From the NCBI RefSeq assembly GCF_041886205.1, contig NZ_CP169029.1: 64,000 nucleotides of DNA; one strand, 5' to 3'. Within the stretch, counting starts at the first letter, position 1, and each line of letters begins with the position of its first letter. The stretch comes from Escherichia coli. Lineage in GTDB: Bacteria > Pseudomonadota > Gammaproteobacteria > Enterobacterales > Enterobacteriaceae. Below, piece by piece: positions 22,589-24,162 of the stretch. Position numbers: made by a program.

Positions 22589-24162
22589 CTATTAATTGGC
22601 TGATCGGACTTGTTCGGCGTACAAGTGTACGCTATTGTGCATTCGAAACTTACTCTATGTGCGACTTACAGAGGTATTGAATGAAACGTGCAGTGATTAC
22701 TGGCCTGGGCATTGTTTCCAGCATCGGTAATAACCAGCAGGAAGTCCTGGCATCTCTGCGTGAAGGACGTTCAGGGATCACTTTCTCTCAGGAGCTGAAG
22801 GATTCCGGCATGCGTAGCCACGTCTGGGGCAACGTAAAACTGGATACCACTGGCCTCATTGACCGCAAAGTTGTGCGCTTTATGAGCGACGCATCCATTT
22901 ATGCATTCCTTTCTATGGAGCAGGCAATCGCTGATGCGGGCCTCTCTCCGGAAGCTTACCAGAATAACCCGCGCGTTGGCCTGATTGCAGGTTCCGGCGG
23001 CGGCTCCCCGCGTTTCCAGGTGTTCGGCGCTGACGCAATGCGCGGCCCGCGCGGCCTGAAAGCGGTTGGCCCGTATGTGGTCACCAAAGCGATGGCATCC
23101 GGCGTTTCTGCCTGCCTCGCCACCCCGTTTAAAATTCATGGCGTTAACTACTCCATCAGCTCCGCGTGTGCGACTTCCGCACACTGTATCGGTAACGCAG
23201 TAGAGCAGATCCAACTGGGCAAACAGGACATCGTGTTTGCTGGCGGCGGCGAAGAGCTGTGCTGGGAAATGGCTTGCGAATTCGACGCAATGGGTGCGCT
23301 GTCTACTAAATACAACGACACCCCGGAAAAAGCCTCCCGTACTTACGACGCTCACCGTGACGGTTTCGTTATCGCTGGCGGCGGCGGTATGGTAGTGGTT
23401 GAAGAGCTGGAACACGCGCTGGCGCGTGGTGCTCACATCTATGCTGAAATCGTTGGCTACGGCGCAACCTCTGATGGTGCAGACATGGTTGCTCCGTCTG
23501 GCGAAGGCGCAGTACGTTGTATGCAGATGGCGATGCATGGCGTTGATACCCCAATCGACTACCTGAACTCCCACGGTACTTCGACTCCGGTTGGCGATGT
23601 GAAAGAGCTGGCAGCTATCCGTGAAGTGTTCGGCGATAAGAGCCCGGCGATTTCTGCAACCAAAGCCATGACCGGTCACTCACTGGGCGCTGCAGGTGTG
23701 CAGGAAGCTATCTACTCTCTGCTGATGCTGGAACACGGCTTTATCGCCCCGAGCATCAACATTGAAGAGCTGGACGAGCAGGCTGCGGGTCTGAACATCG
23801 TGACCGAAACGACCGATCGCGAACTTACCACCGTTATGTCTAACAGCTTCGGCTTCGGCGGCACCAACGCCACGCTGGTAATGCGCAAGCTGAAAGATTA
23901 ATTCGCAGTAGGTCGGAGTAGACGCGCCAGCGTCGCATCCGACGTTACGCGCCAATGCGGCCTCCGGCACTAACACAAAAGGGAACCCGATGGTTCCCTT
24001 TTTCACATCATTGACAATCGCCACCAGTTCCAGGCAAACTTCCCGCTTTGTCGATTTCCTTCTGAAAAGACGTACGCGTTAAATCCTGCCAACGCACCGT
24101 AACCCTGAAACCAGAGAGATGAGACGGGGATACTCCTCGCCTTGCGCTGCATTCTGGAGTAA

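What the first reader, a model, noticed from the sequence alone, without database searches (positions are those of the whole stretch)
22598..22632. Adjacent FadR and FabR operators upstream of fabB
A FadR-type site (ggctgatcggacttgttc) directly abuts a perfect palindrome (gcgtaca-ag-tgtacgc) matching the FabR-type operator. This fits the established dual control of unsaturated fatty acid synthesis and is a useful landmark confirming the fabB call.
Basis: partly seen in the sequence, partly recalled or inferred. Interest (0 to 1): 0.2.

Follow-up and report, generated by a model that had tools for sequence, protein, structure and literature searches.

The report
Known FadR–FabR operators at fabB promoter
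This is the well-studied E. coli fabB promoter, where an activator site (FadR) and a repressor palindrome (FabR) sit side by side to set the level of unsaturated fatty acid synthesis; it is real and conserved, but already known.

Summary
Window 22598-22633 holds GGCTGATCGGACTTGTT (FadR box), one C, then GGCGTACAAGTGTACGCT (FabR box, with perfect 7+7 arms at 22617-22632). It lies 47 bp upstream of a beta-ketoacyl-ACP synthase I gene (fabB, 22681-23901).

The window is Escherichia coli chromosome. The stretch is identical to K-12 MG1655 except for one SNP outside both boxes (T22596, A in K-12). It matches a published fabB FadR/FabR gel-shift probe at 56 of 57 bases.

Taken alone, each match is about what chance gives in 64 kb. 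The case rests on three other results:
- Identity to the published operator sequence.
- 30/36 identity, with the same layout, to the E. coli fabA promoter module.
- A sharp phylogenetic footprint in 77 distinct fabB upstream regions, nearly all Enterobacterales. Conservation is 0.97 for the FadR core and 0.94 for the FabR box, against 0.52-0.66 for the flanks.

With the published transcription start (37 bp before the ATG), the FadR box spans -46..-30 and overlaps the -35 hexamer. The FabR box spans -28..-11, filling the 17-bp spacer and touching the -10. This layout fits activation by FadR and repression by promoter occlusion by FabR.

The parts
22598..22614 (.). FadR operator, a 17-bp imperfect palindrome GGCTGATCGGACTTGTT. 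It spans about -46..-30 relative to the published TSS.
   Evidence: Read. It has 4 mismatches to the consensus aaCTGGTCnGACC(T/A)Gtt from PMC9329746, 2 of them in the 13-bp core. It is 15/17 identical to the fabA FadR box and lies within the published EMSA probe. Core 22600-22612 has mean conservation 0.97 in 77 distinct upstream regions.
22610..22615 (+). Inferred -35 hexamer TTGTTC of the fabB promoter. Five of its six bases lie inside the FadR box.
   Evidence: It sits 17 bp upstream of TATTGT, and the position fits the published TSS. It is nearly invariant in the loci. The assignment is my inference; the stringent consensus scan found no promoter here.
22616..22633 (.). FabR operator, 18 bp, GGCGTACAAGTGTACGCT. 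It spans about -28..-11, which is the whole 17-bp spacer plus the first T of the -10.
   Evidence: It is marked as the FabR palindrome in the probe of PMC4537474. It contains the core ACAnnTGTnnnnT proposed in PMC4804515. Mean conservation is 0.94.
22617..22632 (.). Perfect inverted repeat GCGTACA-AG-TGTACGC inside the FabR box.
   Evidence: It is the only zero-mismatch match in the window.
22633..22638 (+). Inferred -10 hexamer TATTGT.
   Evidence: It ends 6 bases before the published TSS. The TAnnnT pattern is kept across taxa as TATTGT, TATCTT, TAAAGT or TAGAGT.
22644..22644 (+). [quoted passage not shown]
   Evidence: PMC7083825 mapped it by RACE and states agreement with Campbell & Cronan 2001. 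It was not measured here.
22569..22583 (+). Published CpxR box GTAAGgctgcGCAAA (-112..-98 from the ATG). The published DNase I footprint, -119..-94, maps to 22562-22587.
   Evidence: PMC7083825; the sequence is present. Only the 3' half, GCAAATTT, is conserved across taxa.
22681..23901 (+). fabB, beta-ketoacyl-ACP synthase I, the regulated gene.
   Evidence: ORF. NF005935, 804.8 bits. RefSeq annotation.
20516..22522 (-). mnmC, the divergent neighbour. The K-12 annotated GTG start maps to window 22522.
   Evidence: The mechanical ORF runs on to a TTG at 22582.

Best explanation
Window 22598-22633 is the composite FadR-FabR operator of the sigma-70 promoter of E. coli fabB.

FadR is a GntR-family dimer. 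It binds the 17-bp box at about -46..-30, overlapping the -35 hexamer TTGTTC, and stimulates transcription from this weak promoter. Long-chain acyl-CoA releases FadR, which lowers fabB expression when exogenous fatty acids are available.

FabR is a TetR-family dimer. It binds the 18-bp palindrome that fills the -35/-10 spacer (-28..-11) and represses by blocking RNA polymerase. Its binding is strengthened by unsaturated acyl thioesters and weakened by saturated ones.

Together the two sites tune FabB level and so the unsaturated:saturated fatty acid ratio.

Shown here: the sequence, its identity to published operators, the layout relative to the published TSS, the conservation, and the presence of fadR and fabR in the species.

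Taken from the literature: binding by the two proteins, the direction of regulation, and the ligands.

Inferred: the exact -35 and -10 hexamers, and occlusion as the mode of repression.
For: - Identity of the locus: E. coli mnmC-fabB intergenic region.
- Both boxes are identical to K-12.
- The published FadR/FabR gel-shift probe matches at 56/57.
- The FadR consensus comes from PMC9329746.
- The published TSS is 37 bp upstream of the ATG. This gives FadR -46..-30, -35 TTGTTC, FabR -28..-11 and -10 TATTGT.
- The fabA promoter carries the same 36-bp module, 30/36 identical with the same one-base junction.
- In 77 distinct fabB upstream regions, the FadR core scores 0.97 and the FabR box 0.94, against 0.52-0.66 for the flanks. 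The spacing between the two boxes is the same in all but a few loci.
- fadR is present in 5422 and fabR in 5424 of 5426 complete E. coli genomes.
- Regulation is described in PMC3896788, PMC4804515, PMC3460868 and PMC9017321.
Against: - The FadR box is a weak match to the consensus (4 of 16 specified positions differ), which is chance level for 64 kb.
- The consensus promoter scan reports no sigma-70 promoter here, so the hexamers are weak and my assignment is inferred.
- The primary footprinting papers could not be read: Campbell & Cronan 2001, Zhang et al. 2002, Zhu et al. 2009 and Feng & Cronan 2011. Exact footprint limits are therefore not checked.
- Neither regulator gene is in the window.
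Confidence: 0.95

Rival explanations
1. Both motifs are chance matches with no regulatory role.
For: Taken singly, each is at chance frequency in the window. There are 10 perfect 7+7 palindromes against 3.85 expected, and 9 FadR-consensus strand hits at 4 or fewer mismatches against 6.1 expected.
Against: The published operator probe matches at 56/57. The fabA module is 30/36 identical, P about 2e-8. Conservation is 0.94-0.97 inside the boxes against 0.52-0.66 in the flanks, across 77 distinct upstream regions, nearly all Enterobacterales.
Confidence: 0.01
2. The palindrome acts as a nucleic-acid hairpin (terminator, attenuator or mRNA stability element) and not as a protein operator.
For: The arms can form a 7-bp stem with a minimum free energy of -10.5 kcal/mol.
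Against: The fold is not exceptional (z = -1.47; 20 of 200 shuffles fold at least as well). There is no T-run and no terminator call. The palindrome lies upstream of the published fabB TSS, so it is not in the fabB mRNA. In the loci the changes inside the arms are almost all single, with no compensating change in the other arm, for example GCTTACA or TGTAAGC. That pattern fits a protein-read sequence better than a stem.
Confidence: 0.01
3. Only the FabR palindrome matters at fabB. The FadR-like box is conserved mainly because it carries the -35 hexamer and adjacent promoter DNA, and FadR contributes little.
For: A review summarises Feng & Cronan as finding FabR the main regulator of fabB and FadR more important at fabA (PMC3896788). 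The box is a weak consensus match. Rosenbergiella, Gilliamella and Schmidhempelia keep GTTGTTC and the FabR box but have lost CTGATCGGAC. Shewanella and Vibrio fabB are reported to lack a FadR site (PMC4537474).
Against: The upstream half, CTGATCGGAC, lies outside the -35 hexamer yet is about 97% conserved. It is identical to the fabA FadR box. E. coli FadR shifts the fabB probe in EMSA (PMC4537474). FadR activation of fabB is reported in the literature.
Confidence: 0.04

Closest known systems
E. coli K-12 fabB promoter (FadR activator site plus FabR repressor palindrome)
   Same: Both boxes, the junction, the -10 region and the 5' UTR are base-for-base identical over window 22520-22700, except for one position. 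The published probe matches at 56/57.
   Different: A single SNP, T22596 where K-12 has A, two bases upstream of the FadR box. Within a 61-bp query spanning the promoter (22585-22645), the window's sequence is shared exactly by 2250 of 5425 E. coli genomes.
E. coli fabA promoter FadR-FabR module
   Same: The architecture is the same: a 17-bp FadR box, one C, then an 18-bp FabR box, followed by a TAnnnT -10-like hexamer. Identity is 30/36, and the FadR boxes are identical at 15/17.
   Different: The fabA FabR box, AGCGTACACGTGTTAGCT, is an imperfect palindrome, whereas the fabB box has perfect 7-bp arms. The first two bases of the FadR box are AA in fabA and GG in fabB. fabA is reported to have additional start sites (PMC7083825).
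FadR repressor sites of the fad regulon (fadL and fadIJ in this same window)
   Same: They follow the same 17-bp consensus family. AGCTGGTCCGACCTATA at 3126-3142 has 3 mismatches, and AAGTGGTCTGACCTGAT at 3810-3826 has 2 to the review consensus.
   Different: Those sites are closer to consensus (CTGGTC...GACC). According to the review they overlap the -10/+1 region and so repress (PMC9329746). The fabB box is the CTGATC...GACT variant placed around -40 and activates.
DesT/FabR operators of other Gammaproteobacteria (Pseudomonas DesT; Vibrio and Shewanella FabR)
   Same: A TetR-family repressor binds a palindrome upstream of fabA or fabB (PMC3462791). Shewanella fabA carries AGCTTACACGTGTTCGCT next to a FadR box.
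   Different: These belong to other genera, with partly different partner activators. Shewanella and Vibrio fabB are reported to lack the FadR half.

Membership tests
FadR operator (E. coli FadR regulon) | A 17-bp imperfect palindrome matching aaCTGGTCnGACC(T/A)Gtt | tested here: met
   GGCTGATCGGACTTGTT matches 12 of 16 specified positions and 10 of 12 in the core. This is a weak match on its own, at chance level for 64 kb.
FadR operator (E. coli FadR regulon) | Sequence identical to DNA shown experimentally to bind FadR | tested here: met
   56/57 identity to the fabB_ec-BD probe, which E. coli FadR shifted in EMSA (PMC4537474). The box is identical to K-12.
FadR operator (E. coli FadR regulon) | Position compatible with activation (around -40, upstream of or overlapping the -35) | tested here: met
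   -46..-30 relative to the published TSS. The TSS comes from the literature and was not measured here.
FadR operator (E. coli FadR regulon) | Conserved in orthologous promoters above the level of the surrounding DNA | tested here: met
   Core conservation is 0.97 against 0.52 for the 14 bp upstream. The box is lost in a few lineages.
FadR operator (E. coli FadR regulon) | Cognate regulator encoded by the genome | tested here: inconclusive
   fadR is not in the window. It is present in 5422 of 5426 complete E. coli genomes, so it is very probably present in this strain.
FadR operator (E. coli FadR regulon) | Acyl-CoA-reversible binding and FadR-dependent expression in this strain | not testable with these tools
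   This needs EMSA or a reporter assay.
FabR (TetR-family) operator | An 18-bp palindrome of the type GCGTACA-NN-TGTACGC, containing the core ACAnnTGTnnnnT | tested here: met
   GGCGTACAAGTGTACGCT has perfect 7+7 arms and is the only exact match in the window. The core motif comes from PMC4804515.
FabR (TetR-family) operator | Identity to the published fabB FabR box | tested here: met
   The box is marked as the FabR palindrome in the probe of PMC4537474 and is identical in the window and in K-12.
FabR (TetR-family) operator | Overlap with core promoter elements, as expected for a repressor | tested here: met
   It occupies -28..-11, which is the whole spacer plus the first base of the -10. 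The hexamers are inferred.
FabR (TetR-family) operator | Conservation in orthologous promoters | tested here: met
   Mean conservation is 0.94. The box is retained even in Gilliamella, Schmidhempelia and Rosenbergiella, where the FadR half is gone.
FabR (TetR-family) operator | Cognate regulator encoded by the genome | tested here: inconclusive
   fabR is not in the window. It is present in 5424 of 5426 complete E. coli genomes.
FabR (TetR-family) operator | FabR binding, and derepression in a delta-fabR strain | not testable with these tools
   Reported in the literature for E. coli and Salmonella. Not testable here.

The most novel reading that the evidence does not exclude
The 36-bp FadR-C-FabR cassette may act as one fixed-geometry switch and not as two independent operators. 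The one-base junction is the same in all but a few of the Enterobacterales loci and is shared by fabA and fabB. C22615 matches the window base in all 77 aligned sequences. One reading is that the two dimers must sit on adjacent faces, either touching or excluding each other.

The FadR half has been lost separately in some lineages: Rosenbergiella within Erwiniaceae, and Gilliamella and Schmidhempelia. That would extend into Enterobacterales the 'fad regulon contraction' described for Shewanella and Vibrio.
Probability: 0.2. Interest if true: 0.3.

Novelty: already known. Interest (0 to 1): 0.07.

Why it matters
The site serves as a landmark. It confirms the fabB call, the strand and the promoter, and it shows that the window is ordinary E. 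coli core chromosome. Biologically it is the standard example of how one promoter combines an activator that senses acyl-CoA with a repressor that senses the unsaturated:saturated acyl pool to keep membrane lipid composition in balance. Nothing here changes that picture. The cross-species footprint made here simply agrees with it.

Tried and rejected
- **Primary papers.** I tried to read Campbell & Cronan 2001, Zhu et al. 2009, McCue et al. 2001, Feng & Cronan 2011 and Feng & Cronan 2009. None is held. Footprint limits therefore come from secondary open-access sources.
- **Promoter and terminator scan.** The consensus scan of 22450-22750 found no promoter and no terminator. The fabB hexamers TTGTTC and TATTGT fall below its threshold, and I assigned them from the published TSS.
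- **FadR consensus search at 3 mismatches or fewer.** This did not recover the fabB box. It appears only at 4 mismatches, where chance hits are expected.
- **Two other 4-mismatch FadR hits.** The hits at 39039-39055 and 49002-49018 lie inside long ORFs and are treated as chance.
- **Hairpin reading of the palindrome.** Rejected (z = -1.47).
- **Shared CTTACAGAG before the fabA and fabB start codons.** It is not conserved beyond the AGAGG Shine-Dalgarno part, so I did not pursue it.

Full report
**What is in the sequence**

Window 22598-22615 reads GGCTGATCGGACTTGTTC. After one G (22616), 22617-22632 reads GCGTACAAGTGTACGC, with perfect 7-bp inverted arms around a non-symmetric AG. The ATG of a 406-aa ORF follows at 22681.

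That ORF matches NCBIfam NF005935, beta-ketoacyl-ACP synthase I, at 804.8 bits against a cut-off of 630. The divergent upstream ORF is MnmC. The downstream genes are an MFS arabinose-type transporter and Flk.

A 401-bp query across the site matches 5425 of 5426 complete E. coli genomes, many at 100%, annotated mnmC | fabB. The window is therefore E. coli chromosome, in the orientation opposite to K-12 numbering.

Aligned with K-12 MG1655, window 22520-22700 differs at one base. T22596 is A in K-12, two bases upstream of the FadR box. The K-12 mnmC start (GTG) maps to 22522, so the intergenic region is 22523-22680.

**Is it more than chance?**

Each motif alone is not.
- Perfect 7+7 palindromes with a 2-nt spacer occur 10 times in the window, against 3.85 in first-order Markov simulations.
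- The FadR box has 4 mismatches to the review consensus aaCTGGTCnGACC(T/A)Gtt (PMC9329746). At that level the window gives 9 strand hits at 5 places, against 6.1 strand hits expected. A search allowing 3 mismatches missed the fabB box altogether.

Three other results carry the case.
- A published 57-nt gel-shift probe for the E. coli fabB promoter, with the FadR site and FabR palindrome marked (PMC4537474), matches window 22588-22644 at 56/57. The only difference is the SNP, and no shuffle matched.
- The 36-mer 22598-22633 is 30/36 identical, without gaps, to the module upstream of K-12 fabA. That module reads AACTGATCGGACTTGTT-C-AGCGTACACGTGTTAGCT. The binomial P is 3e-13, or about 2e-8 after allowing for all offsets.
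- A protein-seeded search of one genome per species returned 80 fabB loci, nearly all from Enterobacterales, plus Gilliamella, Schmidhempelia and an Alkalimonas MAG. An alignment of 77 distinct upstream regions gave these mean identities to the window:

| Segment | Mean identity to window |
|---|---|
| FadR core, 22600-22612 | 0.97 |
| C22615 | 1.00 |
| FabR 18-mer, 22616-22633 | 0.94 |
| 14 bp upstream, 22584-22597 | 0.52 |
| 30 bp downstream, 22639-22668 | 0.55 |

The distance between the two boxes is the same in all but a few loci. This is a textbook phylogenetic footprint.

**Geometry and mechanism**

[quoted passage not shown] That places +1 at about 22644. The positions then follow:

| Element | Window coordinates | Position relative to +1 |
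|---|---|---|
| FadR 17-mer | 22598-22614 | -46..-30 |
| TTGTTC (inferred -35) | 22610-22615 | -34..-29 |
| FabR 18-mer | 22616-22633 | -28..-11 |
| TATTGT (inferred -10) | 22633-22638 | -11..-6 |

The FabR 18-mer covers the complete 17-bp spacer plus the first T of the -10.

The -10 assignment is supported by conservation of TAnnnT across taxa, as TATTGT, TATCTT, TAAAGT or TAGAGT. Both hexamers are weak, which explains why the stringent consensus scan reported no promoter. A weak promoter also fits dependence on an activator.

The layout matches what the literature states:
- FadR activates fabA and fabB and is released by long-chain acyl-CoA.
- FabR represses both genes. Unsaturated acyl-ACP strengthens its binding and saturated acyl-ACP weakens it (PMC3896788, summarising Zhu et al. 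2009).
- fabB is derepressed in a delta-fabR strain (PMC9017321).
- ChIP places FabR at fabB in Salmonella (PMC4804515).

Occlusion of RNA polymerase as the mode of repression is my inference from the spacer position. The regulators themselves are not in the window. fadR and fabR are present in 5422 and 5424 of 5426 complete E. coli genomes.

**Rivals**

- Chance is excluded by the footprint and by the identity to the published probe.
- A hairpin role for the palindrome is unlikely. The fold is unexceptional (-10.5 kcal/mol, z = -1.47). There is no T-run. The site lies upstream of the TSS. Changes in the arms in relatives are almost all single and uncompensated.
- A weaker rival is that FadR matters little at fabB. 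A review reports FabR as the main regulator of fabB, and some lineages have lost CTGATCGGAC while keeping GTTGTTC and the FabR box. Against this, the upstream half of the box lies outside the -35 hexamer, is about 97% conserved, and is bound by FadR in vitro.

**Comparison with what is known, and novelty**

This is the K-12 fabB promoter itself, with one neutral-looking SNP outside the boxes. Both membership tests (FadR operator, FabR operator) are met for every feature that can be tested from sequence. Binding and regulation in this particular strain cannot be tested with these tools.

- The FabR box as published is 18 bp (22616-22633).
- The FadR box is 17 bp (22598-22614), with C22615 between the two.
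- A third published regulator site, the CpxR box GTAAGgctgcGCAAA at 22569-22583, lies just upstream.

**Limits**

The primary footprinting papers were not available. Exact protected regions therefore come from secondary sources and from the probe annotation.

Noticed in passing
window 3101-3142 and 3810-3826: Two better FadR-consensus sites lie in the same window. AGCTGGTCCGACCTATA (3126-3142, minus strand) is upstream of a 448-aa minus-strand ORF (1676-3022) that I take to be fadL, from its map position and the review's statement that fadIJ sits next to fadL in reverse orientation. I did not search its protein. A weaker second match lies a few bases away, which fits the published two-site fadL promoter. 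AAGTGGTCTGACCTGAT (3810-3826, minus strand) lies about 27 bp before an ATG at 3853 that I take to be the start of the fadIJ operon, again from position only. If so, the window carries three FadR-controlled promoters.
   Followed up: partly
window 22554-22586: Two conserved blocks with fixed mutual spacing lie upstream of the FadR box: GATnTTAnCGA (22553-22563) and GCAAATTT (22579-22586). Read on the minus strand they give TTGCGC, then 17 bp, then TAAGAT, with the TAAnAT positions conserved. This looks like the divergent mnmC promoter. GCAAA is also the 3' half of the published CpxR box, whose 5' half GTAAG is poorly conserved. The distance from this block to the FadR box varies by 6-15 bp among taxa. 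So the conserved half of the 'CpxR box' may owe its conservation to an mnmC -35 element.
   Followed up: partly
window 22596: A single SNP relative to K-12 MG1655 (T here, A in K-12), two bases upstream of the FadR box. Within a 61-bp query spanning the promoter (22585-22645), the window's sequence is shared exactly by 2250 of 5425 E. coli genomes, including O157:H7 strains. The rest are 95-99% identical.
   Followed up: yes
L045, L055 (Rosenbergiella), L083 (Gilliamella), L069 (Schmidhempelia), L082 (Alkalimonas MAG): about 40-100 bp upstream of fabB: The FabR palindrome is retained, along with GTTGTTC except in L082, but the FadR half CTGATCGGAC is replaced by unrelated sequence. The insect endosymbionts L074 and L075 have lost or degraded both boxes. 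Edwardsiella L066 has one extra base between the boxes. I could not check whether fadR is missing from these genomes.
   Followed up: no
window 22637-22640: The bases just after the -10, GTGC in TATTGTGC, are strongly conserved across Enterobacterales (0.7-1.0), while the rest of the 5' UTR is not. Possible readings are a conserved GC discriminator, which could relate to stringent control, or an extension of the FabR contact region.
   Followed up: no
window, whole: Perfect 7+7 inverted repeats with a 2-nt spacer are about 2.6 times more frequent than in first-order Markov simulations (10 against 3.85, with a simulation maximum of 10). Examples are 15032-15047 TTCAGTACGTACTGAA and 44094-44109 TCGTGCACGTGCACGA. 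None was examined.
   Followed up: no
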